Under the pieces are notes generated by a model, which saw nothing but the letters and a program-made list of their open reading frames with translations, was not told where the DNA came from and did no database searches. From the IMG/VR virus record IMGVR_UViG_3300043449_000947, positions 6,921-70,920 of that record: a stretch of 64,000 nucleotides of DNA. One strand, given 5' to 3'. Position numbers and translations under genes: made by a program. This DNA is from a virus. Each line of letters opens with the position of its first letter. Position 1 is the stretch's first letter. Positions 2,547 to 27,246 of this stretch are shown piece by piece.

Positions 2547-3527
2547 ATGAAACCATCACAAGCAGCTGAAGCTATCGCCAAATGTATTCAAGTTAAACAG
2601 CCTCTGTTCCTTTGGGGACAGCCGGGTGTAGGTAAATCAGCCATCACCAGAGATGTAGCTGCTGCACTCAATCTCGAGCTGATTGATCTACGCCTATCAC
2701 TACTTGATTCTGTTGATCTGCGGGGCTTTCCGCACATGGAGAACAAGCGTATGCACTTTGCTACGCCGATTTTCCTTCCAACTGATCCCAATTCATCAGG
2801 CATTCTGTTCCTTGATGAAATGAACGCTGCACCACCAGCTGTTCAGTCTGCTGCCTATCAGCTCGTACTCGATCGTCGTATCGGTGAATACAAGCTACCT
2901 GACGGTTGGGCCATCATTGCAGCAGGCAATCGTGAGACTGATCAGGGTGTGACTTACACCATGCCTGCACCGCTAGCCAACCGCTTCACTCATATCGACT
3001 TCGATGTAAACTATGACGACTGGCGTGCATGGGCTCTCAAGAATGGCATCAAGCCAGAAATCATCAACTTCATCTCGTTCCGACCCAATCTGCTCAATGA
3101 CTTTGACCCTGACAAGCGTGCATTTCCTACTCCTCGTTCATGGGAGTTTGTCAGTCGTATTATTGATGGCAAGCAGTCTATTGAAATAGAACGTGCGCTT
3201 ATCTCTGGCTCTGTTGGCGAAGGTGCTGCAGCTGAGCTAGCTGGCTTCCTCAAAATCTATAGAAATCTGCCCAATCCTGACGTAGTTCTCATGAACCCGT
3301 CCAAGGCAGATGTGCCTACCGATCCAGCTACTCTCTATGCTCTGTGCGGTGCGCTCTCAGCACGTGCCAGTCAGAACAACTTCGATCGTCTCATTGAGTA
3401 CTGCGAGCGCATCAAGCCTGAATTTCAGGTTCTGTGTATTCGTGATGCATTCACTCGTGACAATACGCTTGCTCATACGCAGGCATTCAGCAACTGGGCT
3501 GCTAAGAACAGCTCCGTAATCCTCTAG
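2547..3527 (+). CDS. MoxR-like AAA+ ATPase
   Basis: Walker A GQPGVGKS, Walker B ILFLDE, AAGNR sensor, LANRF, FPTPRSWE. Confidence 0.9.
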   Translation: MKPSQAAEAIAKCIQVKQPLFLWGQPGVGKSAITRDVAAALNLELIDLRLSLLDSVDLRGFPHMENKRMHFATPIFLPTDPNSSGILFLDEMNAAPPAVQSAAYQLVLDRRIGEYKLPDGWAIIAAGNRETDQGVTYTMPAPLANRFTHIDFDVNYDDWRAWALKNGIKPEIINFISFRPNLLNDFDPDKRAFPTPRSWEFVSRIIDGKQSIEIERALISGSVGEGAAAELAGFLKIYRNLPNPDVVLMNPSKADVPTDPATLYALCGALSARASQNNFDRLIEYCERIKPEFQVLCIRDAFTRDNTLAHTQAFSNWAAKNSSVIL

Positions 3528-14822: not shown

Positions 14823-15240
14823 ATTTATAGCCATCGCTCAGGCGGTGGCTTCTCTTTCCAAAGATGACAGCACAAAAGTTGGTGCCATTGCCTTGGGCCC
14901 CGCAGGGGAAATCCGTGCTATGGGATATAACGGAATGCCGAGGGGGTGCGACGATACGAACGCGGTTAAATGTGTCAGACCAGAAAAGTATTTTTGGTTT
15001 GAACACGCTGAGAGGAATCTCATCTATAACGCTGCTCGCATCGGAGTGCCTCTCGAAGGCTCAACTCTTATCCTATCGGGACTCTATCCTTGCATGGACT
15101 GTGCGAGAGCGATTGTTCAGTCCGGAATTCGAGAAGTTATTGCCCCTAGTATCCCTCAAGACTCGCGATGGACAGATCATGCTATCCGAGCTAATCAACT
15201 GTTTGCAGAATGTGGAGTCATAGTTCATGAATATATTTGA
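14803..15240 (+). CDS. dCMP deaminase
   Basis: SKD.STKVGA, GYNG.PRG, HAERN, PCMDC zinc motifs. Confidence 0.92.
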   Translation: MNPKHRKFIAIAQAVASLSKDDSTKVGAIALGPAGEIRAMGYNGMPRGCDDTNAVKCVRPEKYFWFEHAERNLIYNAARIGVPLEGSTLILSGLYPCMDCARAIVQSGIREVIAPSIPQDSRWTDHAIRANQLFAECGVIVHEYI

Positions 15241-15598
15241 TCTTGAATCAGCTCTTGACGGAGCTGATGTGTGTACTCGCAGCGGCTTGTGTGTATCTCA
15301 GCTGCGTACGTTCTCTGATGATGAAGAATCACTCATCGGAGTAATCCACACCTCTGGTGGACGATCGATTCTAGGTCGCTGGAATACAGACGGGCTCTCT
15401 GTAGCTAAAGAGTCTCTTGATCTGTTTATGGAGCCTACGCAAGAAGAGCTCTTCATCAATCTCTATAAGAAGGATGGAGTGATCAAGTCAGGAAAGGTCC
15501 ATACCTCACGAACCGAAGCACTTAACGCAGCTAACAGCTCGCCTATGTATTTCGGAACTCTAGCGTTTGATCCCAACGAGATAGACGCTCTAAGCTAA
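15227..15598 (+). CDS. hypothetical phage protein, paralog of 486-839
   Basis: FDLESALDGADVCTRSG..VSQL...DLFMEP. Confidence 0.7.
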   Translation: MNIFDLESALDGADVCTRSGLCVSQLRTFSDDEESLIGVIHTSGGRSILGRWNTDGLSVAKESLDLFMEPTQEELFINLYKKDGVIKSGKVHTSRTEALNAANSSPMYFGTLAFDPNEIDALS

Positions 15599-15603
15599 CA
15601 ACG

Positions 15604-15626
15604 AAGCCGCTGCAGAGCGGCTTTTT
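15604..15626 (+). terminator. rho-independent terminator
   Basis: AAGCCGCT-GCAG-AGCGGCTT followed by TTT. Confidence 0.75.
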
Positions 15627-15643
15627 CATATCCGGAGAATTTT

Positions 15644-15937
15644 ATGGGTTATCTATACACACTTAATAACGACACTGTGGAAGTTGAGTACAGCGGTACT
15701 CCATACATTCCAGCTTATATATCCGGACCTCCTGAGGACTGCTACCCAGAAGAGGGTGGCGAGATCGAAATCGAGTCTGTCGAATACGAAACCAGTGGTC
15801 GAGTCATGATCGACGGTAAATGGGTAGCTGTTAAGCGAGTAGTTGTGGATATCTCTCCGCTACTTAGCGAAGCTCAGCTTGAAGACATTACTGACAAAAT
15901 TGCTCATTTTAATCACGATGAATATCTTTGTCCTTGA
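15644..15937 (+). CDS. hypothetical acidic phage protein (GPPEDCYPEEGGE motif)
   Basis: GGAG RBS and a recurrent small-phage motif. Confidence 0.7.
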   Translation: MGYLYTLNNDTVEVEYSGTPYIPAYISGPPEDCYPEEGGEIEIESVEYETSGRVMIDGKWVAVKRVVVDISPLLSEAQLEDITDKIAHFNHDEYLCP

Positions 15938-16394
15938 TCAGAACCCACGTCTTGCAGGCATGATGCACTGCGACAAGCATGTCTCAAAAATGCTGCTCGA
16001 GAGTGCTCAGATGATCTGCACTACCATTAATCATATTGGTGGTGTATCTCCCTACAAGACTTCGCATCTGAACCATCCTTGTTCTGTATGGGCTAGGGCT
16101 AGTTCAGAAAATCTCAACTGGTTGAGCTACCTAGCCAAGGAGCTCAACAACCAGTACCGCGTTAGATATAACAAGGATCACAACCACAAATCGTGGGAAG
16201 TAATAAAACACGTAATAAAACACAATGAAACACTGATAACAGAAAAGATGCATCACATCGGTCCTACTCCGTTCGTATTGGCCATGCCTGAACAGTACAA
16301 GTGCTCTGATCCTGTACAGGCGTACAGGGCTTATTACAAATCCAAAGAATTCGCTCAGTGGAACAAAGGTGTTCCAACTCCTTACTGGTGGTGA
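15918..16394 (+). CDS. pyrimidine-dimer DNA glycosylase/endonuclease V-like protein
   Basis: MNIFVLD...HCDKHVSKMLLESAQM, H.NHPCSVW, AMPEQYK..DPVQAYRAYY. Confidence 0.85.
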   Translation: MNIFVLDQNPRLAGMMHCDKHVSKMLLESAQMICTTINHIGGVSPYKTSHLNHPCSVWARASSENLNWLSYLAKELNNQYRVRYNKDHNHKSWEVIKHVIKHNETLITEKMHHIGPTPFVLAMPEQYKCSDPVQAYRAYYKSKEFAQWNKGVPTPYWW

Positions 16395-16395
16395 C

Positions 16396-16998
16396 ATGAC
16401 TGGTTCTTTATCTAAACCGTCCAAGATGCCGGGCTTTGGCTACGGCCTACCAGCTCTTACGTCTTGTAAGGTTGGTAGTGAATTGGCTAAAATACCCGGG
16501 TCTGTTTGCAACAAGTGTTACGCGTTAAAGGGACGATATGTAATGCCTGTTGTACAACAGGCCCAAGCTCTTCGTCTTGCGTCCATAGAAGGTCCGAACT
16601 GGGTCGATGATATGGTTAAGCTGATAGGACGCAAACGAGAAAAACATTTTCGCTGGCATGATTCGGGAGACTTAGTCTCCCTTGTTCATTTAGTGAATAT
16701 TGTTTCTATTGCTCGACGCTTACCAGAATTTCTTTTCTGGCTTCCTACAAGAGAACGAAAGATAGTTAATTCATATGAACGTCTTTTCGGTGATTTTCCA
16801 GACAACCTTATCGTGCGTATCAGCGTAGCGATGGTTGATGGCAAACCTCCTCAAACTTCTTTGTGTACATCTACGGTCCATAAGGACAGCGTTCCTATCG
16901 GCTACATGTGTCCCGCTCATCTACAGAACAACAAGTGTGTTTCTTGTCGAGCCTGCTGGGACAAGACAATAAAGAACATTTCTTACTTGGAACACTGA
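16396..16998 (+). CDS. gp88-like Cys-rich (Fe-S/radical-SAM-like) protein
   Basis: SKPSKMPG, C...SVCNKCYA.KG.Y, FRWHDSGD, FWLPTRE, C-terminal CPA...CVSCRACW. Confidence 0.75.
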   Translation: MTGSLSKPSKMPGFGYGLPALTSCKVGSELAKIPGSVCNKCYALKGRYVMPVVQQAQALRLASIEGPNWVDDMVKLIGRKREKHFRWHDSGDLVSLVHLVNIVSIARRLPEFLFWLPTRERKIVNSYERLFGDFPDNLIVRISVAMVDGKPPQTSLCTSTVHKDSVPIGYMCPAHLQNNKCVSCRACWDKTIKNISYLEH

Positions 16999-17058
16999 TG
17001 GAATTGATAGCAGCAGCTGTTGTACTTCTTATCCTTATAGCAACGGTGGATTGTTAGT

Positions 17059-17232
17059 ATGATCGCGAATATCGAAGAAATTTTAGTTAATTCAAGACGT
17101 GCTCTCATAAAAAATCCAACAAATGACGAAGCTAAATCGGCGTTGTCATGGTGTATCTTTAATCTTCTGCAGATTCGAGCAGAAGTCCCAAAAGAGATAG
17201 AACATATAGTCAGAAAATGTTCGCAAGCTTAA
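17059..17232 (+). CDS. small hypothetical protein (57 aa, not in ORF track)
   Basis: ATG 17059 to TAA 17230-17232. Confidence 0.45.
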   Translation: MIANIEEILVNSRRALIKNPTNDEAKSALSWCIFNLLQIRAEVPKEIEHIVRKCSQA

Positions 17233-17469
17233 TGGGCGGCGGAAATCCTTTTAACCAAGGGTTCACAAAACGACTGTCGCCCACCCTTTACGGAGTAGCA
17301 CTGCGTATGACGATACGAAATCCTGTTGCGATGGCGGTATAAAAACCGGACTCGGATTGACGAGTTAAGTCGGGTAGCTACTCCACCCTTTAATGACCCT
17401 CGGCCTTACTTTCTATCTTATTTTTTGGGATGGACAGTTCGATCAAAATCTCCGAGGGTCACCCATTTA
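17233..17469 (+). ncRNA. three tandem stem-closed RNA-like elements, each ending A-CCC(A)TTTA
   Basis: Stems: TGGGCGGCGG/CTGTCGCCCA (17233-42/17274-83), GGAGTAGC/GCTACTCC (17292-99/17367-74), TGACCCTCGG/CCGAGGGTCA (17384-93/17452-61). Each is followed by CCCTTTA or CCCATTTA. Confidence 0.55.
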
Positions 17470-17758
17470 CAGCGCAAAATAGCGAACAGAAGGCCAGAGC
17501 TGCACATCGTAGCGCAATGCAATTAAAGAAAACGCGCTGAGAATTCAGCCAATACAGGCCCATTTATGGGCCTTATTTGGGTGGGTTTTCCCATCAGATG
17601 CAAGATAGTGCAAATACAAGAACCGCAAAACATAGCATCGAAAGCAAGTGAGCTGAGAATTCAGCCAGTGCGAGACTCTCTGAGTCTCCATCTGGGTGAG
17701 CTTTCAATAATTGATTTGCTCCGCCATGCATCGCATCGATAGTAAATTAAATGCAATG
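17470..17758 (+). ncRNA. array of three 5-nt-periodic tracts separated by two conserved hairpins (candidate guide-RNA array)
   Basis: Tracts at 17470-17534, 17596-17650 and 17709-17758, with consensus pentamer [C/A]ANNG. Identical 16-mer GCTGAGAATTCAGCCA at 17536 and 17652. Confidence 0.7.
17536..17705 (+). repeat. two ~55-nt structured repeats (17536-17590, 17652-17705)
   Basis: GCTGAGAATTCAGCCA-RTRC-[variable perfect stem]-YATY-TGGGTGRGYTTTC, spaced 116 nt apart. Confidence 0.85.
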
Positions 17759-17787
17759 TCTTTATCACTTCAACTCAGGAAATCATC

Positions 17788-18384
17788 ATGTCTATTGAAT
17801 CTATTAACGTAAAAATTTCCGGTATCCAACCTCTGCTGATGAGTAATCCGCAGACGGTGGATCGTTTCAATCCCTTTGCTAAAGAGATAGCCAAGATTAA
17901 CGCCAAGAAAACTCGTCGTACTGACGAAGATTACAGGCATCTGGCTGATCTTGAAGTTCGTTCCAAAGTCCATTGGTCTGACGATCATGGCGTGTTCGTT
18001 CCTAGCACTTGGTTGTTAGCAGCTCTGTGCAAGAACGGCTTTAATCTTAAGAAGCTCGCGAAAGATAAGATTCGCGGCTCGGTATTCACTACCGCTCCAA
18101 AGATCAAGCTTAACTACGAAGGACAGGATGTTGTTCAGACGCTTGATGATGTCGTAGGCAATCCTCGCTTTCGTTATCAGATGAACGTGAAGCAAGGACA
18201 GGTACGCATCATGAAGTCCATGCCTATCTTCAAAGACTGGTCTTTTGAGACTGAACTTGAATTTGAAAACACTCAGATCGATCCATCTGACCTCAAGGCT
18301 TTGCTTGAATACTCGGCCAAGTACGGTGGTTTCGGTGACTTCCGTCCTACCTTCGGTCGTTCTGTTGCAGAGGTAACCATCTGA
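17788..18384 (+). CDS. stand-alone Cas7/RAMP-like RNA-binding protein
   Basis: N-terminal strand INVKISGIQPLLM; VFVPSTWLLAAL at the position of the RAMP IPGSSLKGAL motif; W.F..ELEF strand; C-terminal Gly loop YGGFGDFRPTFGR. AGGA RBS. Confidence 0.75.
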   Translation: MSIESINVKISGIQPLLMSNPQTVDRFNPFAKEIAKINAKKTRRTDEDYRHLADLEVRSKVHWSDDHGVFVPSTWLLAALCKNGFNLKKLAKDKIRGSVFTTAPKIKLNYEGQDVVQTLDDVVGNPRFRYQMNVKQGQVRIMKSMPIFKDWSFETELEFENTQIDPSDLKALLEYSAKYGGFGDFRPTFGRSVAEVTI

Positions 18385-18812
18385 TGAAAACTAGAGAAGA
18401 CATCGTCTCTTGGTTCAGAGCAAATAAACTGGACCAGTATGGAGCTGTAATCAGAAGAACAGACATCCTTTCATTTGCCGATATAGAGGTTCCCGCAGTC
18501 GGTACGATGAAGGAGTTCGAACAGATTGCTCTGCTTGAAGTAGGTATCACTCAGTATCTGCGTGATCTTCTACTCAAGGAGGGCAAATACCTGAAAAAAG
18601 ATGGAGACTTCTATAGAATTCTCCTTCCATCCCAAAACCTTCAGCAGATCCAGTCGTACATGCGCTCCGCAGATAAGAAGCTACGTAGAGCTCGTATATT
18701 GAGCGTCAACACTCCTGTGCAGCATCAAGACATCGCTGACAATCTTAAGGTGCGCATTCACATGAAAGAACAGTCGACACGCCATGCACGTGCATACGGT
18801 CATGCTGTTTAA
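18384..18812 (+). CDS. hypothetical protein translationally coupled to the RAMP-like gene
   Basis: TGATG stop/start overlap. Basic helical C-terminus. Confidence 0.75.
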   Translation: MKTREDIVSWFRANKLDQYGAVIRRTDILSFADIEVPAVGTMKEFEQIALLEVGITQYLRDLLLKEGKYLKKDGDFYRILLPSQNLQQIQSYMRSADKKLRRARILSVNTPVQHQDIADNLKVRIHMKEQSTRHARAYGHAV

Positions 18813-18883
18813 GATCACCTCCTGAGGGTGAAGGACGCTTGCCGAGAGCGATATCTCGGCATCTATTCAATCAGGAGAGAACA

Positions 18884-19102
18884 ATGATCGATTTCGATGA
18901 GTGGTATGCAGAGAACTACCAGCTCTACACTTCAAAGAATGGGCTAGCTCTAGCGGCATGGCAAGCTGCAGCCAAGATGGAACGAGATCGATTGGTTCAG
19001 ACTCTCCTCAACAATCTAGAAGCTGAAAAGTGCTGGTGTGAAGGCATTCAGAAGTCTCTGAACGAAATCGACATAGTGCTCAAACAGAACAGATGGCTTT
19101 AA
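18884..19102 (+). CDS. small phage protein (FDEW...AWQAAAKMER family)
   Basis: AGGAG RBS. Paralog of 84-296 and 293-499. Confidence 0.7.
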   Translation: MIDFDEWYAENYQLYTSKNGLALAAWQAAAKMERDRLVQTLLNNLEAEKCWCEGIQKSLNEIDIVLKQNRWL

Positions 19103-19113
19103 CGGAGAAAACA

Positions 19114-19254
19114 ATGACTGCGCAAGAAAAACTGAACTACATAATCGAAGCAATCAAGACAATCAACCAGACGATCGACAACGAAGCGCCAGACCTCGCT
19201 TACAGACGTCTGTCGTTACTGCTCGAAGAGATAGAGGGATGGACCAATGAATGA
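19114..19254 (+). CDS. small hypothetical protein (46 aa, not in ORF track)
   Basis: GGAG RBS, ATG 19114 to TGA 19252-19254. Confidence 0.5.
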   Translation: MTAQEKLNYIIEAIKTINQTIDNEAPDLAYRRLSLLLEEIEGWTNE

Positions 19255-19456
19255 AGAAGAGAACTGGGTCATCATAAACACAGGCTGGAACGAAGGTATA
19301 GCGCTGCCGTTCTCAGACTTTGCAACCATGGCTGATCGTCTGATCCATGTCGGCGTCGACAATGACGCCATCACCGTCAAAGACGCTCTCAAGTTCACTC
19401 TCGTAAGAGGTGAAGTCATCAACGCTGCCCGCGTAAGGGCCAGAATCACCCAGTAG
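19247..19456 (+). CDS. hypothetical protein
   Basis: Last ORF of the + arm before the terminator. Confidence 0.6.
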   Translation: MNEEENWVIINTGWNEGIALPFSDFATMADRLIHVGVDNDAITVKDALKFTLVRGEVINAARVRARITQ

Positions 19457-19469
19457 GGTGATTTTTTTT
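19444..19469 (+). terminator. rho-independent terminator ending the + arm
   Basis: AATCACCC-AGTA-GGGTGATT followed by a T run. Confidence 0.8.
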
Positions 19470-19514
19470 GCTCAAAGAGCTGCGAATAGCCCCTTTTTCT
19501 GCTGTCTTTGAAAA

Positions 19515-19830
19515 AACCACAACAGACCTAACACACCCGAAATCGCTAAAAAGTGTTGTGATGTTGTGATTTTCAGCTGGCGAAAATAAGAATCACAACA
19601 GAATCACAACACCCTCAAACCCTTACCATCTCTAGCTTTCTTATATATTTGTTGTATGTTGTACTTTTTTTAGCTTACTCACTATAGAAATACAAAAATG
19701 TAAAAAAATAGAAAAAATGTTTTTCTATATATGACTTAGCGAGTGAAAAAACCCCAACTTCACAACAAGCCATGTCGGGCCTGCTCTAGCGACTGTTGGG
19801 GTCCGTTTTAGAAACTACAACTTCACAACA
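19515..19830. repeat. ACAAC/GTTGT iteron-like repeats around an AT-rich core (candidate replication origin)
   Basis: About 10 copies in both orientations, mostly as tandem pairs. AT-rich core at ~19640-19735. Confidence 0.6.
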
Positions 19831-22800
19831 CTACAGCCATTGATCGTACAGCTTGTATGCTGGTAACGCTTCCACGATCCACTTGTGCATTGACTCCGGA
19901 TCATCACTGCCTACAGCCTTGAGTCCTTTACGCATCTGTCCCAGTGTAGGACCTGCGAAGCTTTCGTACCCACCACCGCCCCAATCAACATCCTGCTGCG
20001 AGTCGATGAAGAACTGACCTACACCGGTCAGACCTGACCGTTCTACGCCTCTCTTCATGTAATCGACTGCACCCCAGTCTTTCTTATAAGGTGGTTCCTC
20101 ACCTGAATTGGCGATCATGTCCTTCGCAAAGTCTGCAGCAATCATTCCCGGCACATACAGAGAAGCGATTAAAACCGGTTTGAAGTTGCCATGCGACATC
20201 TCGTGTGTCAGACGATCGATGATTACCGCCTGAAAGCTCCACACGAACTGTTTAAGGTGCGAAATGAGTGCGAGGTAGGGGTTACTAGCCCATGCAGGCA
20301 ATTCGGCGCTAGAGGGGTTCAGGAGGCTCTGGTGGACTATCTTCTCCATAGCGTTCCTCAACTTGGCTTCCGTGGCCTTAGCCTGCTTCATAGTCATCTT
20401 CGGATTCAGCGCCTTGATTTCATCAGCCGTAAGCGCTAACCGGTCCAGATTTTCATCAAACATGATGTCTGGTTTTTCTAGCCCCAGCTCCTCCAGATAA
20501 CGAGCACTCTGCTCCTTACCAAAGAAGTCTTCAGAACTTCTTTGCAGGAAGGTATTCGCCGCTCTGACTGCCATGATGGTGTTGTTACGTATCCATCCAC
20601 TCAGCAGGTTAACTTTGAAGAACTTGTCGTTGATATCCTTCAATTTGCCTGACATGGTGATGCCGTCATAGCGGTTGTAGGCGTTGATCACCGTACCTGA
20701 GTCAGCGATGATGCCCCAGTCCTGAGCGATCTGCTCCCACTGATCTCGTGTGTACTCTCCATGCCACTCCTTGAACATGTTCTTCAACGAGTAGGTAAAG
20801 GCGTCCCACCCAGCCGTCACGCTGTTAGTGCGGATAGCGATGCCCAGCGGATCAACGAGCGACGAGAAGATAGCCAGAGGTAGGAGACGGATATTCTGGT
20901 AAGTAGTCATCACTCCCATCAGATCCTTCATCTCTCTACTCATACCAATTTCCTTGTTGCCCATCAGGCCATCAAGATAATTCTTGGCTAGAGCCAGATC
21001 GTCTGGCGTAGCGCCGTAACGATCCTGCGCTTCTTTGATCAGTGCGTTGAATTTCTTACCACCGTTACCGAAAGTGCGTACGAATTCAGCCTGACGTACT
21101 GCCTGCTTGATGTAGCGCGTGGCGGTATGTACTGGATCATCCTCCATGAACTTGCGGCGATCGGCTGCGTCGAGAAAGCCCAGAGTACGCGTGCGAGTAT
21201 GAGCAGCCATGGGCTCATTTTCATCACCCATGACGTTAACCAGATCTTCTCCTCTCTCCAGATAAGAGACGATGGAGTTATAGAGCTCATCCGGAGTCTT
21301 CATCAGCGTATCCATGTACTGCTTGTACTTGGGCTGATTGAGCATCTTGAGAAAACCTTCCTTGTCTGCAGCCACCTTCTCCGGATCGAAAGCTAGCGGG
21401 TAGTAGTTCTTGATCTCTCCAAGAATCACACCTGCGTCTTTCTGGTACGCCAGCACTTGGCTGTAGAACGTACGCAGCGCCTTGGCTCTGTTTGCTACGA
21501 GCGGATCGTTTGTAGGAATGCGCCCAGCAATCAGTGCATCGTGTACTGCCAGCTGCTGTTCTTCAGTCAAGTCGCCCAGAATCTTGCTGATTCTGTTCTG
21601 AAACGCTTGCGTCTCGTTACGCATGCGCTGAACCATACCGCTTTCGTTCCCATCCATACCTGTAGCCTGATAGCCCAGCTGAGCTATACGGGCTAGAGGA
21701 GGGATGGTTGAGTTATTCAGACGGTTGTACACCGAGGTGAAGATCACATCGTAGAGTTTCTCCAGAGCTAACAGAGCGTCCTTACCGACTTTGAGAGCCT
21801 TCTCTCCAGAGGTCATATTCCTGTCCAACACCCTCTGCAATGGAGTGGCTCCTCGCTTGGCTCTTTCACCACTAGCGAAGTCCTGCATGATCATCTCAGC
21901 CTTCATGTTGTTGTCCATGATGCTGAGGATGCTGTAGATCCAGTCTTTGATCTTCTGAAAGAGCCCTTCAGTCTTCGGACCTACCTTCAGTATCGAAGGA
22001 TCAGCTACCCACAACTGAAAACCATAAGCTGCAGCCTCTTCACCATTCTCCAACTGCTTCAGAACAGCCTTGTCGTTCTTGAAGTAATCGCGCAGCTTCT
22101 TAGCTACCGGTCCTTGTGTGAAGGCAGTAGCCAGAATCCTTCTTTCATCAGTGCTGAAGAAGAACTGGAAGGCAGCATGAACTGGTTCATGATCAGCTAA
22201 CGCGATGTTTTTCTCCGCACCCGCAGCCAGCTTGATTACACCGAGCAGTGCCTGATCTTTGGTAAGCCGCTCTTCTTCATTAAGCAGGCGATCGATCCCT
22301 GCCTTAAGCTGAGCGTCAGTTAGCTTGGATTCACGATCTTCAGGTTTCTGTTTGAGTTCTTTTACAAGATTTCTTCTTTCGTTAGTTACGTTTTCTATCG
22401 CTTCCTTGATATTGACGTACTCACCTTTAGCCTGATTCTCGAGCACTTGCTCGAACTGCACGGCTACTCTATGTCCTAGCAGTTTTTCTACTCTGGCAAT
22501 GAAAGCCTTCTGAGCTTTGCTGTACTCCCACGGCCCTTTTTTCGAACCCTTTTTAGGAGACTTCGGAGGCTTTGGAGGTTCGTTACCGAATAGATCAGTA
22601 GGCTCACCCCCACCGGGAGGAGCTTCCTCTCCCTCTTCTTCTCCTTCTCCCTGCTCTCCAAAGAGATTAGTAGGCTCACCTCCTCCGGGAGGAGCTTGTT
22701 CATTCTGATCGTTTGCTGCAGCCAGACTATCTACCCACTGTTTGAAAGTAGTAGATGGCTGCATCACCGCGATCACGTCATCAAAGAACTGCCGCATCTT

Positions 22801-25800
22801 TGCGGTGACTTTGTTCCAGAAACCGGCTTCTTTTACAGAAACCTTACCCGCAACTTTCTCTTGTACCGCATGTTTAGCGAACTGATTAGCAAACCACTCG
22901 CTGAAAGATAGGGTGTACCCCGGTTTGTTACGGGCGTCGTTTGCTTCAGCGAATTTTTTACCAGACCCAACCTCATCCATCTTGCTGCTATTCATGATGT
23001 CCTGCATAGCAGCTGGGTTTGAGAACTTCTCACCCAGTTCGAATAGCGTCTGAGAACCGCTGTTGAAAGCAGCCAAATCTGCTTCGTACTGAGCGTAGAT
23101 AGCATCCTTCACAGACTGATCTGCTGACAGATATATGTGGTACATCAGAGCATGGCCGAATTCATGCGCTAACGTAGTGGCGGTACGAAGGCCACGCAGC
23201 CTAGTAGGGTTTAGCTCGATGTAGTTCTTATTGGTATCGACATCAAAACGCTGCTGCCCATATCCTTGAATCTCACGATTGATAGAAATCGTAAGGTCCA
23301 TGTTTGGCGCGTATTTAGCGATCCATTCCTTGACGATTTCCTTAGCCTTTGCGAGATAGCGCCGATCTGTCAGCTCCATCTTGGCGATCTTTTTATCGGC
23401 CATACTAAGCAGCTGCTGCATCGTTCCCTTACGCAGCTGGGTAGTCTTCTTGATGTTCTCAATTACCGCCTGTACTTCTTGTACAGTTTTGGCTTTAGCT
23501 AGCTCTTCTCTAGCTTTCTTCGCGGGAACGACTTCAGCTTCGGAGTTCTGCTCTTGTTTCTCTTCCTGAGCAGGAGCCTTAGGCTGTCTTCTAGCCTGTG
23601 CTGCCCTTAGCGCCTCTAATCTAGCAGTATCTCCGTTTTTGATTGCTTCAGCTATCTCGAATAAGAGCCCTTCATCGTCCAGTTCGTCCAGCTGGAAAGG
23701 GTTGAAGAATGGTTTCTGCTCTTGCTTCTGTTTCTGAGTACCGCCTAGTTCTTTCTTCTTATCGGTCAGAGCCTTCAGCAGCTCCTTCCTCTCTTCTGGA
23801 ATAAGCTTGCTTTCATTACTCAGCTTTATGCCCGACAAGTCTTTAAGTGTTTTAGCCTCGCTGATCTGCTTACGTAACTCATCTACTCGTTCCAGCTGGA
23901 TCGGATAGATCTTCTCGCCCTTGGTATTTTTTCTATTGGCTCTAGCACGCGCAGCAGTCTCCTTGTGCATAGGAGTCTTTCTATACTCCTCCATTTCTCC
24001 TGCAGCACGCTCGTCAGCAGTGGGGTCTTGTCCAGCAGCAGTATCTACTGAGTCACTACCAGAGCCCAGTTCAGCTACGTCTTTTTCTGATAGCAGCCCG
24101 TCTAGATCGAAATTCCTCCGACCTTCGATCATGGGTATTCCAAGATCTTTTAGTATCTGGCGTCCGGTAGCAGCTTCTTTGGAATCGATGGCTTTAGTAT
24201 CGTATTCCTTCTTCGCATCTTTGAGTTTCGCTTTCTTGAACGCAGCTTCTATCTGTTCAGGAGATTTCTTCCTAGCATTCTTCTTTCTGGTAGCGAGCTC
24301 TTCGCGTTCTTCGTCTGTATATTTTCCTGCCTCAATACGCGCCTTCTCTCTCGCTAATATTTCAGAAGACTCGAGATTAGCGTCCTGAATGTTGTAAGCA
24401 TGTCCGATGAGCTGAAGACCTTGTTCAGAGATAGCTCCGCTACGGAAAGCAGAATTCAGTATGCTGTCTTCTTCTCGAACACGAGTGTCTCTGATTTTCT
24501 TTGGGTAGTTCTTCTTGGCTTCTGCAAAAGCCTTCTCATCCTTGATCCCCTTCTTTAGAGAATTCAGATGATTCAACTGCCCAACAAGCTTCGCGTACTT
24601 TTTTGTACCCGCCCTACTTGAATTTACGGCTTTCTGAACATTTTTGATCTCAGCGTTGAGTGCGCTCAGAGTCTCGAACTTATCTGCAGTTTTAGACATC
24701 TGCGCCAGCTTGGCAGACGTAGGCCATCCACCTTTACGGCTTTCAGTAGCCTTGCGAATAGTGAAGGGATCACCGCCTTTGTTATTGATGACCTTACCGC
24801 CTAGAAAGGCGTCTTCAGGTACTTCGACTTTTAGACGATTACCGTTGTGGTCGATGCCCAGATCAGCAAGAGTAGCGACCAGACTGCCATAACGATTGAA
24901 CGCATTTTGGTCAGGCGATTGCTTTTCATTGTATTCGCTTAGATAACTGTGGAAGGCACCACGGTTGTCTTCGGTAGCTGCCATGTTGGTCAGAGACATT
25001 GGATTTATATCCAACGACAAAGACCCGTCTTCGTTCAGCTCTTTACCCAGCTCTTTAGCGAACTCTTCAACACCTTCACCAGAAACTCGTACAGGGAACT
25101 GCGTGTTTTTACTGTTGTTGTATTGAGGATCAGCGAGAGACTCGGTTATGGTTTTGGAATTGAATGGAGACAGCGCGGTTTCTTCCAGATCGACTTTGTT
25201 GCCGTCCTGATCGTACAGACCGTTAGTCTGGCCGGATTCATCGAGCAGCTCGTCACTTTCAGTTGGTTTGAAGAAACCCCCAGAGTTATCGAACCCGTCC
25301 GTATCGACAGAACTTTCGTCTGCGGCGGCAGAGTAATCTCTAGCATGCAGCTTACCGGCTTTAGCCTGTTCTGCTTGTTTCAGAGCGTCGTCGCTGGTTA
25401 CTGATAGATGCGCGTACAGCTCCTCAGGAGATAGATCGGTCTTGCTAGCTAACATCTCCAACAAACCGGCCTGATCGTCGGACATGTCTTCCAAACGAGT
25501 GCCAGCTAACTCCTGAAGAACAGGTACAGCTTCAGTGCCTAGTTTTTGGTCAACAGCCAGCGCTTCGATATTTGATTTAGTAATCTTGTGCGTAGCTACA
25601 TTGTTCTCTCTATTGTTATAGGCGTTGATTACAGAGAACAGATCGGTACCAGTGCTGTCTTCCCATGCCTTGGCGATATTGGCACTGGCTGGATTTCTCT
25701 CGAGAGCTTCTGGTGTGTATTGAGCGGGATCACTAGCGGCCATAGAGAACAGCTGAGCCAGATCTCTCTTATCGATAATCGTAGAACCCTTCTGCTCGAT

Positions 25801-27246
25801 GAGGTCTTTCAGAGCTGGGTGAACTGCCTTCAGCCCGTTAAGGATGGGCTCAGGTTTGAAACCCTCCATAGAGGCTTTCTGATCCGTATCATCCTTGAAG
25901 AGTCCCTTAACGGCGTCGCTCGTCCACTTAAAGATTCTGGGAGCTTCATTGGCTATACGGTTCTTGGCTACGCCAGCGGCCATACCGGCGTTTTCCATGA
26001 ACTCCTGACCAGTAGCCGACTTGAGCAGCAGCTTGTATGTAGCCCAATCCGTCGCAGTCTTAGCGCCAAGAGAGGCCGCGTCCTGCGTAAATTTCTCTCT
26101 GATTTCTGGGTCTTTAATGTGCTGAGCAACGAACGCGTTTACGTCCTCTGCAGTTTTGCCCAAGAACTTCTCGGCATTATCCAGACCTTCTCCACGAAGA
26201 TAACCCAGACCTTCACCCGCCTTGGATATGGCTCCAAGGGTCATGTTCTTTAGGTCTTCTCCCAGCTCTCCTGAATTCTGTAGTCTGCTGAACAGAGCGT
26301 CGAAAGAACGAGCGGTTTTATTTACCGGAGGTGCTACTGCTGCGAAGGTATTGTCTCTAGCGGCTTGTGCAGCACCGCCCATAGTGCCCATAGGAGCGCC
26401 ACCAATGGCACCACCAATCATCGCTTCCTTGGTTTGACCGAAGTCATACTGGCTCTGTGGATTTAGGGCTTTGAGCGCAGTCTGACCCGTCAGGTCCTGC
26501 AGACCTTCTTCCATACCTTCGCCAGCAGCCGAGCGAAGTGTAGCTAGACCCACGGTCTTGAAAGCGTTGCCCAGACCAGCGCCAGAGGTAATACCTTTAC
26601 CTAGCAGAGAGGGTAGAACGAGCGCCCGCTCGTTTATATTCTCTATGTATGCGTTACCAGCACCCACAGCTCCAGCCATAGCCGCTCGTTTCCAAGCAGG
26701 CTGCTGCATAGCAACAGGATCATTCAGCGTATCAAGAACCTGACCACCGGCTTCCATAGGAATAAGCGGAGCCGTACCGCCAACCAGTGCTCCTCTAGCA
26801 CCACCTAGAGCGCCGCCTAGAGCTGTACCAGCTAAGGCCATACCGGAAGTCATCGCACCTTCGCCTACTTTACCCGCAGCGTAATTGGCAAAATCTGCAA
26901 CGGAGTGCACGTCATCAGATTCAGCTACCTGCGGGGCCCATGCCTGAGGCATGTCTCGAATACTCTGAGCAGCAGCTCGTTGTGTACGAAGACCTTCCTC
27001 AGGATTGGATAGCTCTTGCAGCTGACCATAAGCTGCTTTGGTAGCCTCACCAGCACTGTATGCAGCGCGACGAAGCCCCTTAACGAACTCACCACCACTG
27101 AACTGATAATCACGGTCTGCTTGTGTCAGCTCTTCAGCTGAAACAGCTTCGCCAGCTCCAGTTCTGTTTATGATCCCTAATCTGTTTCTAAAGGCTTGCT
27201 CAAGAGGAGAAAGAGGGAGCGGTGCGCGAGGGTCGTTTATATCCAT
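19831..27246 (-). CDS. giant internal virion/ejection protein (2471 aa) with zincin-like motifs
   Basis: Last gene of the virion arm. Gly/Ala-rich N-terminus, HEFGH and HEPVH motifs, and a helical C-terminal region typical of podophage ejection proteins. Confidence 0.7.
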   Translation of the reverse strand: MDINDPRAPLPLSPLEQAFRNRLGIINRTGAGEAVSAEELTQADRDYQFSGGEFVKGLRRAAYSAGEATKAAYGQLQELSNPEEGLRTQRAAAQSIRDMPQAWAPQVAESDDVHSVADFANYAAGKVGEGAMTSGMALAGTALGGALGGARGALVGGTAPLIPMEAGGQVLDTLNDPVAMQQPAWKRAAMAGAVGAGNAYIENINERALVLPSLLGKGITSGAGLGNAFKTVGLATLRSAAGEGMEEGLQDLTGQTALKALNPQSQYDFGQTKEAMIGGAIGGAPMGTMGGAAQAARDNTFAAVAPPVNKTARSFDALFSRLQNSGELGEDLKNMTLGAISKAGEGLGYLRGEGLDNAEKFLGKTAEDVNAFVAQHIKDPEIREKFTQDAASLGAKTATDWATYKLLLKSATGQEFMENAGMAAGVAKNRIANEAPRIFKWTSDAVKGLFKDDTDQKASMEGFKPEPILNGLKAVHPALKDLIEQKGSTIIDKRDLAQLFSMAASDPAQYTPEALERNPASANIAKAWEDSTGTDLFSVINAYNNRENNVATHKITKSNIEALAVDQKLGTEAVPVLQELAGTRLEDMSDDQAGLLEMLASKTDLSPEELYAHLSVTSDDALKQAEQAKAGKLHARDYSAAADESSVDTDGFDNSGGFFKPTESDELLDESGQTNGLYDQDGNKVDLEETALSPFNSKTITESLADPQYNNSKNTQFPVRVSGEGVEEFAKELGKELNEDGSLSLDINPMSLTNMAATEDNRGAFHSYLSEYNEKQSPDQNAFNRYGSLVATLADLGIDHNGNRLKVEVPEDAFLGGKVINNKGGDPFTIRKATESRKGGWPTSAKLAQMSKTADKFETLSALNAEIKNVQKAVNSSRAGTKKYAKLVGQLNHLNSLKKGIKDEKAFAEAKKNYPKKIRDTRVREEDSILNSAFRSGAISEQGLQLIGHAYNIQDANLESSEILAREKARIEAGKYTDEEREELATRKKNARKKSPEQIEAAFKKAKLKDAKKEYDTKAIDSKEAATGRQILKDLGIPMIEGRRNFDLDGLLSEKDVAELGSGSDSVDTAAGQDPTADERAAGEMEEYRKTPMHKETAARARANRKNTKGEKIYPIQLERVDELRKQISEAKTLKDLSGIKLSNESKLIPEERKELLKALTDKKKELGGTQKQKQEQKPFFNPFQLDELDDEGLLFEIAEAIKNGDTARLEALRAAQARRQPKAPAQEEKQEQNSEAEVVPAKKAREELAKAKTVQEVQAVIENIKKTTQLRKGTMQQLLSMADKKIAKMELTDRRYLAKAKEIVKEWIAKYAPNMDLTISINREIQGYGQQRFDVDTNKNYIELNPTRLRGLRTATTLAHEFGHALMYHIYLSADQSVKDAIYAQYEADLAAFNSGSQTLFELGEKFSNPAAMQDIMNSSKMDEVGSGKKFAEANDARNKPGYTLSFSEWFANQFAKHAVQEKVAGKVSVKEAGFWNKVTAKMRQFFDDVIAVMQPSTTFKQWVDSLAAANDQNEQAPPGGGEPTNLFGEQGEGEEEGEEAPPGGGEPTDLFGNEPPKPPKSPKKGSKKGPWEYSKAQKAFIARVEKLLGHRVAVQFEQVLENQAKGEYVNIKEAIENVTNERRNLVKELKQKPEDRESKLTDAQLKAGIDRLLNEEERLTKDQALLGVIKLAAGAEKNIALADHEPVHAAFQFFFSTDERRILATAFTQGPVAKKLRDYFKNDKAVLKQLENGEEAAAYGFQLWVADPSILKVGPKTEGLFQKIKDWIYSILSIMDNNMKAEMIMQDFASGERAKRGATPLQRVLDRNMTSGEKALKVGKDALLALEKLYDVIFTSVYNRLNNSTIPPLARIAQLGYQATGMDGNESGMVQRMRNETQAFQNRISKILGDLTEEQQLAVHDALIAGRIPTNDPLVANRAKALRTFYSQVLAYQKDAGVILGEIKNYYPLAFDPEKVAADKEGFLKMLNQPKYKQYMDTLMKTPDELYNSIVSYLERGEDLVNVMGDENEPMAAHTRTRTLGFLDAADRRKFMEDDPVHTATRYIKQAVRQAEFVRTFGNGGKKFNALIKEAQDRYGATPDDLALAKNYLDGLMGNKEIGMSREMKDLMGVMTTYQNIRLLPLAIFSSLVDPLGIAIRTNSVTAGWDAFTYSLKNMFKEWHGEYTRDQWEQIAQDWGIIADSGTVINAYNRYDGITMSGKLKDINDKFFKVNLLSGWIRNNTIMAVRAANTFLQRSSEDFFGKEQSARYLEELGLEKPDIMFDENLDRLALTADEIKALNPKMTMKQAKATEAKLRNAMEKIVHQSLLNPSSAELPAWASNPYLALISHLKQFVWSFQAVIIDRLTHEMSHGNFKPVLIASLYVPGMIAADFAKDMIANSGEEPPYKKDWGAVDYMKRGVERSGLTGVGQFFIDSQQDVDWGGGGYESFAGPTLGQMRKGLKAVGSDDPESMHKWIVEALPAYKLYDQWL
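22591..22698 (-). repeat. intragenic tandem duplication (APPGGGEPTxLFG twice)
   Basis: 72-nt period repeat in the linker of the giant protein. Confidence 0.85.

What the first reader, a model, noticed from the sequence alone, without database searches (positions are those of the whole stretch)
17470..18812. Candidate compact RNA-guided system: stand-alone Cas7/RAMP-like gene behind a 5-nt-periodic, hairpin-punctuated non-coding array
Seen: three non-coding tracts lie immediately upstream of the RAMP-like gene and read in 5-nt phase. T1 (from 17470): CAGCG CAAAA TAGCG AACAG AAGGC CAGAG CTGCA CATCG TAGCG CAATG CAATT AAAGA AAACG. T2 (from 17596): AGATG CAAGA TAGTG CAAAT ACAAG AACCG CAAAA CATAG CATCG AAAGC AAGTG. 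T3 (from 17709): AATTG ATTTG CTCCG CCATG CATCG CATCG ATAGT AAATT AAATG CAATG. By hand count over 34 pentamers, position 2 is A in 27, position 5 is G in 23, and position 1 is C/A in 31 and never G, while positions 3-4 vary. This is a G-[C/A]-A constant triplet alternating with a variable dinucleotide. T1 and T2 run in the same phase into an identical 16-mer that begins a conserved hairpin. The 198-aa protein carries the RAMP/Cas7 hallmarks: first strand ending PLLM, a VPS..L.AAL helix and a C-terminal G-loop (GGFGDFRPTFGR). No cas1/cas2/cas3/cas10 or CRISPR array is in the window. Established: Cas7-family RAMPs polymerise along guide RNA with a fixed nucleotide step per subunit. Inference: each pentamer binds one subunit via the constant triplet and the variable dinucleotides spell a gapped target code (T1 GC AA GC CA GG GA GC TC GC AT AT AG AC; T2 AT AG GT AA AA CC AA TA TC AG GT; T3 TT TT CC AT TC TC AG AT AT AT). 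That would give three guides, possibly against competing phages or host genes. From memory, this matches the logic of recently reported viral VIPR-type systems (GGY/NN repeats). Here the constant bases are A-rich and degenerate, so this may be a divergent subtype. An alternative register (ARY constant, then NN) cannot be excluded.
Basis: partly seen in the sequence, partly recalled or inferred. Interest (0 to 1): 0.95.

Follow-up and report, generated by a model that had tools for sequence, protein, structure and literature searches.

The report
Phage VIPR guide-RNA system, G(C/A)A type

Summary
Period 5 across 17470-17758 beats 500 of 500 shuffles. The shared 16-mer and the hairpins are real.

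The 198-aa protein matches the solved SUSP1 Vipr protein over its full length (PDB 36pp, E 5.9e-24) and models as a Cas7-like RAMP. The next gene resembles SUSP1 vap1 (hhalign 91.7%). In 41 of 51 distinct relatives' loci a strong GCA/NN or GAA/NN tract lies beside the gene on its strand.

Scored with a GCA/NN model, T1 and T2 are the two best stretches in the whole 64 kb and exceed 20 of 20 shuffles. T3 is not above chance and has no tail.

Two relatives' guides fit the published one-base-skip code: one matches an integrative element in its own host chromosome, the other an integrase gene. No target was found for this phage's guides. Their fixed triplets are unusually degenerate.

VIPR is in print in 2026 preprints. 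This scan has already noted GCA-type VIPR loci on other DNA. Verdict: a new member of a known kind.

The parts
17233..17469 (+). Three stem-closed elements, each followed by CACCC(A)TTTA. The third abuts vrRNA1. Whether they belong to the system (as leader, processing or expression elements) is unknown.
   Evidence: The motif occurs only at 17282, 17384 and 17460 in the 64 kb. Fold z-scores are -2.8, -2.5 and -5.1. There is no Rfam match.
17469..17533 (+). vrRNA1 repeat tract. It holds 13 pentamers in the register [fixed triplet][NN]. The NN string is GC AA GC CA GG GA GC TC GC AT AT AG AC. The last two units run into the clade's conserved AACGCG tail junction, so they may not be guide.
   Evidence: Scores 24.0 bits, the best 10-unit stretch in the window and above 20 of 20 shuffles. 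Fixed triplets are GCA in 3 and GAA in 2 of 13 units. Position 3 is A in 12 of 13 and position 1 is G in 7 of 13.
17534..17594 (+). vrRNA1 3' tail. It comprises the junction CGCGC, the 16-mer at 17536-17551, and a long hairpin at 17539-17590.
   Evidence: Minimum free energy -28.4 kcal/mol, z -4.95, 0 of 200 shuffles as stable. Inverted repeat I1.
17595..17649 (+). vrRNA2 repeat tract of 11 pentamers. The NN string is AT AG GT AA AA CC AA TA TC AG GT.
   Evidence: Scores 18.0 bits, second best in the window. Fixed triplets are GCA in 4 and GAA in 2 of 11 units. Period 5 in this tract alone is not significant.
17650..17708 (+). vrRNA2 3' tail. It holds the same 16-mer (17652-17667) and a long hairpin at 17654-17706 whose apical stem differs entirely from that of tail 1.
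   Evidence: Minimum free energy -27.2 kcal/mol, z -3.07. Repeats D1 and I2.
17713..17762 (+). T3, a tail-less pentamer tract in the 5' leader of vipr. It may be a remnant or a leader element and is not shown to be a guide.
   Evidence: Scores 8.2 bits, inside the shuffle range. No stable fold, z +0.57. It is 76% alike to part of T2 (repeat D2).
17788..18384 (+). vipr, encoding a 198-aa Vipr protein (RAMP, Cas7-like).
   Evidence: Matches PDB 36pp_D 'SUSP1 Vipr protein' at E 5.9e-24 over residues 5-196. Matches phrog_4652 at E 1.2e-56. AlphaFold2 model has pLDDT 90.2. The listed top Foldseek matches are Cas7, Csm3 or Cmr6 chains or complexes holding them.
18384..18812 (+). vap, encoding a 142-aa accessory protein. 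Its start overlaps the vipr stop codon. It is a likely vap1 homolog.
   Evidence: 52 homologous ORFs were found in relatives' loci (duplicate contigs counted; I did not tally positions). In the loci I read they lie downstream of vipr, directly or after an array. hhalign against SUSP1 and VpaE1 vap1 gives probability 91.7%, E 8e-7, over 89 columns. BLASTP alone sees nothing.

Best explanation
The stretch is a complete VIPR locus of a roughly 71-kb tailed freshwater phage. It holds two tail-bearing guide-RNA genes (vrRNA1 and vrRNA2), a tail-less third tract, the vipr gene and a vap1-like gene, all on the + strand.

Proposed mechanism, by analogy with the SUSP1 system. Each vrRNA is a transcript of about 115-125 nt. 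One Vipr subunit binds each pentamer. The subunits bury the fixed triplet, here G-(C/A)-A in place of GGY, and expose the two variable bases. The filament then pairs those dinucleotides with double-stranded DNA, skipping every third target base, and represses transcription of a rival mobile element. The vap protein assists.

Shown here:
- homology of both proteins to their SUSP1 counterparts;
- the Cas7-like fold;
- the periodic tracts and their structured tails;
- the same locus architecture in relatives;
- matches that fit the one-base-skip code for two relatives' guides.

Inferred:
- that the tracts are transcribed;
- that Vipr binds this phage's degenerate scaffolds;
- that the outcome is repression;
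- the target, which is unknown.

The confidence given (0.85) is for the locus being a VIPR system of this kind. That vr1 and vr2 are working guides I put at about 0.7.
For: 1. Protein. It matches SUSP1 Vipr (PDB 36pp) at E 5.9e-24 over the full length. It is 32% identical to the SUSP1 genome copy. tblastn found 130 phage records, 129 of them covering at least 80% of the query. In one Felixounavirus hit that I opened, VpaE1, the gene sits among textbook GGT/NN arrays.

2. Fold. The model has pLDDT 90.2. The listed top Foldseek PDB matches are chains from type VII Cas7, Csm, Cmr6, Cas7-11 and type IV effector complexes, most with probability 0.9-1.0 and the best with TM about 0.5 (43 matches at E<=0.001).

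3. Guide-contact residues (read against the Results of bioRxiv 10.64898/2026.04.26.720927).
- Kept: D177 and R179 of SUSP1 are D184 and R186 here.
- Changed contacts of the second and third fixed bases: R138 to M145, E71 to W75, M72 to L76, W178 to F185, C173 to G180.
- This fits a fixed triplet that keeps G1 but changes G2 and Y3.

4. Relatives.
- 41 of 51 distinct loci have a tract of at least 20 bits on the vipr strand, against 8 of 51 on the other strand.
- 20 of 51 have 8 of 8 exact GCA units.
- Some arrays are mostly GAA/NN.
- Over 1,487 units the NN entropy is 1.93 and 1.99 bits.

5. Window. T1 and T2 are the top two stretches and exceed all shuffles. The tails fold well, with a swapped apical stem. 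The AACGCG junction is shared with relatives.

6. Accessory gene. The vap resembles vap1.

7. Code in the clade.
- An Azonexus prophage guide (12 NN) hits its own chromosome with 2 of 24 mismatches. My hand-calculated expectation is about 6.5e-5. The reversed control gave 0 in that genome and 0 of 201 genomes across the family.
- That site lies at the 5' end of an HTH gene, between a P4-type integrase and a DnaB-like helicase.
- A provirus guide (L013) spells an integrase gene at 20 of 20 bases, with the skipped base on the wobble position.
Against: - The fixed triplets are far more degenerate here than in most relatives. Only 5 of 13 units in vr1 and 6 of 11 in vr2 are G(C/A)A. The best 8-unit stretch holds 2 exact GCA, whereas 20 of 51 relatives have 8.
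- T2 alone shows no significant period 5.
- T3 is within chance and has no tail.
- No sigma-70-like promoter was found ahead of the tracts. The whole scan gave 3 sites against 3.5 expected.
- No target was found for this phage's guides.
  - Its own genome gave nothing above permuted guides under skips of 0-2 bases.
  - Three exact IMG/VR scans gave one hit, in an intergenic stretch of a 160-kb contig. It does not extend (2 of 6 further bases) and is compatible with chance.
  - The scan of 401 genomes of one order gave one 2-mismatch hit, against about 0.4 expected by hand.
- The L013 hit has a chance expectation of about 0.06-0.09 per scan, so it is suggestive only.
- The second Azonexus guide and an L018 guide found nothing.
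- The closest relatives (70-79% identity) could not be inspected as DNA.
Confidence: 0.85

Rival explanations
1. The protein genes are intact, but the guide genes are decaying. The tracts would then be worn vrRNAs that Vipr no longer loads well. The phage may instead use its Vipr with guides supplied in trans, or the system may be on its way out.
For: Only 5 of 13 and 6 of 11 units carry G(C/A)A. The vr2 tail junction has diverged from AACGCG. T3 lacks a tail. No target was found. [quoted passage not shown]
Against: T1 and T2 are still the two strongest GCA/NN-like stretches in the genome. A at the third fixed position is kept in 12 of 13 and 9 of 11 units. Both tails keep stable hairpins through a complete exchange of the apical stem, which points to selection on structure. 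Other members with GAA-rich or mixed scaffolds exist.
Confidence: 0.17
2. The tracts are not guides. They would be Vipr-binding sites in a long 5' leader of the vipr-vap mRNA, serving autoregulation or as decoys.
For: All tracts lie directly upstream of vipr on its strand, and T3 runs to within 26 nt of the start codon. The Vibrio phage relative also has a short tail-less tract just before vipr.
Against: Relatives place the same kind of tract-plus-tail units downstream of vipr, or between vipr and vap, as well as upstream. This fits separate RNA genes. No window guide matches the phage's own genome above permuted controls.
Confidence: 0.08
3. The periodicity is a chance feature of an A-rich intergenic region with two terminator-like hairpins, next to an unrelated RAMP-fold gene.
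For: T2 alone is not significantly periodic, and T3 is within the shuffle range.
Against: The whole-region period 5 beats 500 of 500 shuffles. T1 and T2 beat 20 of 20 shuffles under the GCA/NN model, whose weights I set by hand from the relatives' tracts and did not tune on the window. The same register, strand and tail junction recur beside the homologous gene in 41 of 51 relatives.
Confidence: 0.02

Closest known systems
Type II VIPR system of Escherichia phage SUSP1 (Vipr, vap1, vrRNAs). Sources: bioRxiv 10.64898/2026.04.26.720920 and 10.64898/2026.04.26.720927; PDB 36pp.
   Same: - The Vipr proteins are homologous (E 5.9e-24).
- The accessory gene is vap1-like.
- The vipr and vap genes are adjacent.
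- The guides are built of pentamers with a fixed triplet and a variable NN, followed by a structured 3' tail.
- The system is phage-borne, with no cas genes or CRISPR array.
- The G-loop residues D and R that contact the fixed triplet are conserved.
   Different: - The fixed triplet is G-(C/A)-A, not GGY.
- The residues that hold G2 and Y3 in SUSP1 are replaced: R138, E71, M72, W178 and C173.
- The tail here is a long hairpin, and I did not test it for the SUSP1 pseudoknot.
- All tracts lie upstream of vipr.
- The scaffolds are strongly degenerate.
- The target is unknown.
VIPR arrays with non-canonical repeat units. Sources: bioRxiv 10.64898/2026.10.21.760802, passages seen; 'NNNGG, YNNNG and NNNNG' repeats in the Methods of 10.64898/2026.04.26.720920.
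   Same: These are five-base periodic arrays beside Vipr-like folds, with a fixed trinucleotide other than GGY.
   Different: The main texts I read name GAC, CAC, WGT and TGH. GCA and GAA are not named ('gca' 0 occurrences). The supplementary figures that list all motifs were not available to me, so this clade may already be included there.
Class 1 CRISPR backbone proteins (Cas7 family: type VII Cas7, Csm3, Cmr4/6, Csf2).
   Same: The RRM/RAMP fold with a glycine-rich loop and a thumb is shared. The listed top Foldseek matches have probability up to 1.0. Both polymerise along a guide RNA with a fixed step, which is established knowledge for Cas7.
   Different: - Sequence identity in the listed Foldseek matches is 8-15%.
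- There is no CRISPR array, Cas1 or Cas2.
- The step is 5 nt rather than 6 nt.
- The guide is non-contiguous.
GCA-type and G-N-A-type VIPR loci already noted by this scan in other genomes (e1-5348157, e1-6121492, e1-5804207).
   Same: They have the same fixed triplet family and the same reading as VIPR.
   Different: They lie on different DNA. I did not check those notes myself.

Membership tests
VIPR system (Vipr + vrRNA + vap) | The Vipr protein is homologous to a characterised Vipr. | tested here: met
   PDB 36pp_D 'SUSP1 Vipr protein', E 5.9e-24, residues 5-196 against 3-189. The SUSP1 genome copy matches at E 2.8e-26 with 32% identity.
VIPR system (Vipr + vrRNA + vap) | A minimal RAMP fold: RRM core, glycine-rich loop and thumb. 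| tested here: met
   The AlphaFold2 model has pLDDT 90.2. The listed top Foldseek matches are Cas7-family chains or complexes holding them. The loop GGFGDFRP aligns to SUSP1 GVGDWRP. I did not inspect the thumb residue by residue.
VIPR system (Vipr + vrRNA + vap) | Guides are tandem pentamers with the fixed triplet GGY and a variable NN. | tested here: not met
   The strict scan found no GGY/NN tract in the window. The fixed triplet here is G-(C/A)-A, and it is degenerate.
VIPR system (Vipr + vrRNA + vap) | Guides are tandem pentamers of 'a related consensus', 9-16 units long, with hypervariable NN. | tested here: met
   vr1 has 13 units and vr2 has 11. Both exceed all shuffles under the GCA/NN model. 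In relatives the NN entropy is 1.93 and 1.99 bits, against 0.78 to 1.09 bits at the fixed positions. That tract set was picked with a model that leans towards GCA.
VIPR system (Vipr + vrRNA + vap) | A conserved structured 3' tail follows the repeat tract. | tested here: met
   vr1 and vr2 share a 16-mer and form long hairpins with z -4.95 and -3.07. T3 has no tail. The pseudoknot was not tested.
VIPR system (Vipr + vrRNA + vap) | An accessory vap gene lies next to vipr. | tested here: met
   The 142-aa ORF overlaps the vipr stop codon. 52 homologous ORFs were found in relatives' loci, duplicates counted. hhalign to SUSP1 vap1 gives probability 91.7%, E 8e-7.
VIPR system (Vipr + vrRNA + vap) | The system is phage-borne and has no cas genes or CRISPR array. 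| tested here: met
   The record is a virus of 70,920 bp, rated 100% complete. It encodes a portal, tail fibres and a DNA polymerase. No tandem array of CRISPR period was found. There is no Cas1 or Cas2. Other cas families were not searched.
VIPR system (Vipr + vrRNA + vap) | RNAs of about 100 nt are expressed and co-purify with Vipr. | not testable with these tools
   No RNA run holding this DNA was listed.
VIPR system (Vipr + vrRNA + vap) | The NN string matches a DNA target under the one-base-skip rule. | tested here: inconclusive
   For the window's guides there was no hit above chance. For clade relatives there was one strong case (Azonexus) and one suggestive case (L013). Two other relatives' guides found nothing.
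CRISPR-Cas class 1 effector (Cas7 as part of a cas operon) | An adjacent CRISPR array and other cas genes are present. | tested here: not met
   The neighbours are a GP88-family gene upstream and small unknown ORFs downstream.

The most novel reading that the evidence does not exclude
This locus may belong to a Vipr lineage that has re-specified the fixed part of its guide from GGY to G-(C/A)-A. Coordinated changes in the base-holding pocket would underlie this: the R138, E71, M72, W178 and C173 equivalents. In this phage the lineage would tolerate scaffolds in which fewer than half of the units match the consensus.

If so, loading would depend mainly on the third-position A and the tail, and the rules for what makes an RNA a vrRNA would be looser than published. 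The three hairpin-plus-CACCC(A)TTTA elements upstream could then be part of an undescribed expression or processing module.
Probability: 0.3. Interest if true: 0.55.

Novelty: new member of a known kind. Interest (0 to 1): 0.4.

Why it matters
VIPR is a months-old discovery: a CRISPR-related, phage-borne way to silence DNA with a non-contiguous guide. This locus adds a well-documented member from a lineage whose guides use G-(C/A)-A rather than GGY.

The comparison made here pairs that change with substitutions at the residues shown by cryo-EM to hold the second and third fixed bases. That gives a concrete hypothesis about how Vipr proteins choose their own guides, which bears on cross-talk between rival systems and on engineering orthogonal VIPRs.

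The two target matches in relatives extend the one-base-skip code and the anti-mobile-element role to this lineage. One lies in an integrative element, the other in a prophage integrase. For this phage itself nothing unexpected was found beyond its worn scaffolds.

Tried and rejected
- Rfam on 16500-19500 at E<=1 gave only a chance-level sRNA hit at 18.6 bits against a gathering score of 172. No tRNA was found.
- Pfam gave nothing for Vipr or vap.
- Megablast of 15000-21000 against phages found no match.
- Self-targeting was tested with the NN strings of vr1-3 against the 70.9-kb genome under skips of 0-2 bases. The best scores (14-19) were reached by 7 to 100 of 100 permuted guides. The skip-3 'hits' are the guides themselves.
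- Exact IMG/VR scans of the window's guides:
  - vr1 units 1-10 gave one hit (L063 5745-5773). It is intergenic, in a 160-kb contig whose ORFs did not look phage-like to me by eye. Units 11-13 match 2 of 6 bases. I read it as chance.
  - vr2 units 1-10 gave none.
  - vr1 units 4-13 gave none.
- The 16-mer of the tail, used as a probe and a calibrator, gave 24 loci. None holds Vipr, vap or a tract, and 10 come from one unrelated phage family.
- vr1 (11 units, up to 2 mismatches) in 401 genomes of the order of the Azonexus genome gave 1 hit, against about 0.4 expected by hand. I read it as chance.
- Relatives' guides without a hit: Azonexus vrB and L018.
- Sequencing runs: no RNA holder was listed. 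The two DNA holders are the likely source sample and a river sample that holds only a 370-nt piece of vipr. Laying them added nothing about the tracts.
- The sigma-70 and terminator scan gave nothing useful. The '-' strand terminator-like calls are the tail hairpins read backwards.
- Supplements of the four preprints are closed. Figures S17 and S10, which list repeat logos, may already show this motif.
- Not tried: a pseudoknot test of the tails, a covariance model, complex prediction, and Cas3 or Cas10 searches.
Full report
**What is there**

The window is most of a 70,920-bp virus record rated complete. It encodes a portal, tail fibres, a DNA polymerase and a helicase. The portal is 49% identical to that of Pseudomonas phage KPP25. 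The only full holder among public runs is a freshwater metagenome, which may be its source.

Between a GP88-family gene (16369-16998) and the 198-aa ORF lies about 550 nt without a convincing ORF.

**Check of the observation**

Identity at lag 5 and lag 10 across 17470-17758 exceeds all 500 dinucleotide-preserving shuffles (z 3.4 and 3.2). T1 (p 0.01) and T3 (z 5.1) are periodic on their own. T2 is not (p 0.21). The 230 nt upstream are not periodic.

The 16-mer stands at 17536-17551 and 17652-17667, in the same phase relative to each tract. Each copy starts a long hairpin, at 17539-17590 and 17654-17706 (z -4.95 and -3.07). The outer arms are shared and the apical stem is completely exchanged.

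**The protein**

Pfam finds nothing. PHROGs places the protein in phrog_4652, of unknown function (E 1.2e-56).

Against the sequences of solved structures the only match is 36pp chain D, 'SUSP1 Vipr protein', at E 5.9e-24 over residues 5-196. The gene in the SUSP1 genome matches at 32% identity.

An AlphaFold2 model built on 39 homologs has pLDDT 90.2. Its listed top Foldseek matches in the PDB are chains of type VII Cas7, Csm, Cmr6, Cas7-11 and type IV effector complexes. Most have probability 0.9-1.0, and the best have TM about 0.5. That fold library ends on 8 April 2026 and listed no Vipr entry.

**What VIPR is, as read in the papers**

I read the whole Results and Methods sections 18 and 20 of bioRxiv 10.64898/2026.04.26.720920. 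According to that paper:
- VIPR loci hold a vipr gene, a vap gene and vrRNAs.
- A vrRNA has 9-16 YNNGG units followed by an invariant structured tail.
- The NN bases pair with double-stranded DNA while one target base per unit is skipped.
- The outcome is repression of rival phages and satellites.
- Alternative repeats (NNNGG, YNNNG, NNNNG) and 'frequently observed internal degeneracy' are mentioned.

I read part 1 of the Results of 10.64898/2026.04.26.720927. It names the SUSP1 residues that hold the fixed bases:
- H17 and D177 hold G1.
- R138 and W178 hold G2.
- E71, M72, C173, T175 and R179 hold Y3.

**Relatives**

tblastn finds the protein in 130 phage records. One Felixounavirus hit that I opened, VpaE1, has the gene (33% identity) flanked by plain GGT/NN arrays, followed by a 146-aa gene.

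The closest cultured relatives are Vibrio phage 1.266.O (51%) and phage phiHSIC (48%). Both carry clean GCA/NN arrays on the gene's strand.

I fetched 13 IMG/VR loci, 43 metagenome loci and 6 loci from the genome collection. With the two cultured phages, 64 loci had a Vipr match, giving 51 distinct sequences.
- 41 of 51 have a tract of at least 20 bits within -900 to +1500 nt on the gene's strand, against 8 of 51 on the other strand.
- 20 of 51 have eight exact GCA units in a row.
- Of the ten below 20 bits, seven have under 200 nt of upstream flank. L029 and L030 have full flanks but weak tracts. L057 holds only part of the gene.
- Several members (L045, L050, L053, L026) use mostly GAA/NN.

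Over 102 distinct tracts (1,487 units), position 1 is G in 87%, position 2 is C in 75% and A in 19%, and position 3 is A in 86%. The NN positions have entropy 1.93 and 1.99 bits. Those tracts were picked with a model that leans towards GCA, so the fixed positions are biased upwards.

Most tracts end in (A/C)AACGCGG, followed by a variable hairpin. vr1 of the window ends in AAAACGCG.

**The window's tracts under the clade model**

I scored the window with a soft GCA/NN model. Its weights were chosen by hand after seeing the relatives' tracts. They were not fitted, and they were not tuned on the window.
- T1 scores 24.0 bits and T2 scores 18.0 bits. They are the two best 10-unit stretches on either strand of the 64 kb.
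- The next best elsewhere scores 8.0. Twenty shuffled windows reach at most 12.3.
- The first 7.2 kb of the genome, outside the window, hold nothing.
- T3 scores 8.2, inside the shuffle range. It has no AACGCG junction and no stable fold. I therefore do not count it as a guide.

The scaffolds are worn. G(C/A)A occurs in 5 of 13 units of vr1 and 6 of 11 of vr2. A at position 3 is kept in 12 of 13 and 9 of 11 units.

**Pocket residues**

In the alignment, D177 and R179 of SUSP1 are invariant (D184 and R186 here). The other contacts differ as follows.

| SUSP1 residue | Window | In the 14 GCA-clade rows of the alignment |
|---|---|---|
| H17 | S19 | N in 10 of 14 |
| R138 | M145 | A, M, L, V or F |
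| E71 | W75 | W in all 14 |
| M72 | L76 | L, V or I |
| W178 | F185 | F |
| C173 | G180 | G |

The chain has V at position 175, where the paper writes T175. Here it is F182.

The contacts of the base that stays (G1) are thus partly kept, and the contacts of the bases that change are replaced. This is inference from alignment, not a structure.

**The accessory gene**

The 142-aa ORF starts on the vipr stop codon.
- phmmer found 52 homologous ORFs in the relatives' loci, duplicate contigs counted. In the loci I read they lie downstream of vipr, in some after an intervening array. I did not tally this.
- BLASTP to VpaE1's vap1 finds nothing.
- A profile of the clade's proteins aligns to SUSP1 and VpaE1 vap1 with probability 91.7% and E 8e-7 over 89 columns. 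The alignment includes the shared G-Y-R-V/I-x-x-P motif.

**Does the clade use the published code?**

An Azonexus prophage (Vipr 51% identical, L092) has two vrRNAs upstream of vipr.
- The 12 NN of the first, written NNx, hit the same chromosome 2.6 Mb away with 2 of 24 mismatches.
- By hand, about 6.5e-5 such hits are expected in 3.6 Mb. The reversed control gave none.
- Across 201 genomes of the family, 2 have a hit: this one and a homologous site with 3 mismatches. The reversed control gave 0 of 201.
- The site overlaps the first codons of the longest reading of an HTH_36 ORF. If that ORF starts at its internal Met, the site lies in the leader.
- It sits between a P4-type integrase and a DnaB-like helicase. 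This looks like a small integrative element.
- The second guide found nothing.

A provirus guide (L013, 10 units) matches one IMG/VR contig exactly. The match is in the last codons of a P4-type integrase gene, with every skipped base on the wobble position. The 16-mer calibrator implies about 0.06-0.09 chance hits per such scan, so this case is suggestive only. An L018 guide found nothing.

**Targets of the window's own guides**

None was found. Details are under Tried and rejected. The host is unknown, and the searchable collections allow only exact patterns or small genome samples. This says little either way.

**Comparison and novelty**

Protein homology, fold, vap, tail and locus type all place this locus in VIPR, nearest to type II. 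The published GGY consensus is not met. The 'related consensus' clause is.

Passages of a fourth preprint (10.64898/2026.10.21.760802) report 21 clusters of Vipr-linked arrays with non-canonical triplets. GAC, CAC, WGT and TGH are named.

GCA is not named in the main text of the three preprints I searched for the word. I did not search the structure preprint for it. Two literature searches found no other VIPR paper. Supplementary figures that list the motifs were not open to me.

This scan has itself already noted GCA-type and G-N-A-type VIPR loci in other genomes (unchecked by me). I therefore file this as a new member of a known kind. Its own peculiarities are degenerate scaffolds, a tail-less third tract, and three hairpin-plus-CACCC(A)TTTA elements upstream.

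**Verdict**

- Confidence that this is a VIPR locus is about 0.85 to 0.9.
- Confidence that vr1 and vr2 are working guides is about 0.7.
- Interest is 0.4. The system is real and topical, but a specialist would not be surprised.

Noticed in passing
window 17233-17469: Three back-to-back stem-closed elements, each followed by CACCC(A)TTTA. The motif occurs nowhere else in the 64 kb. Fold z-scores are -2.8, -2.5 and -5.1, and there is no Rfam family. The third element ends where vrRNA1 begins.
   Followed up: partly
L002 3114-3395 (phage phiHSIC, AY772740): The annotated ORF21 on the minus strand lies on three GCA/NN tracts (3136-3389) between vipr and vap. It is probably not a gene.
   Followed up: no
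L096 9951-9985 (= L094 1501-1535; Azonexus chromosome): A prophage vrRNA of the same bacterium matches this site with 22 of 24 bases under the one-base-skip code. The site is at the 5' end of an HTH gene in a small element that carries a P4-type integrase and a DnaB-like helicase.
   Followed up: partly
L098 1084-1112: The 10-unit guide of provirus L013 spells the last codons of a P4-type integrase gene exactly. The skipped bases fall on wobble positions.
   Followed up: partly
L045, L050, L053, L026 (upstream of vipr): Arrays in these relatives are mostly GAA/NN rather than GCA/NN. The middle fixed base of this clade is therefore C or A.
   Followed up: partly
window 19831-27246 (- strand): A 2,471-aa ORF lies directly downstream of the VIPR neighbourhood. 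I did not analyse it.
   Followed up: no
window 17721-18090: A river metagenome from another study holds a 370-nt contig of this stretch with one differing letter. Near-identical phages therefore occur elsewhere.
   Followed up: no
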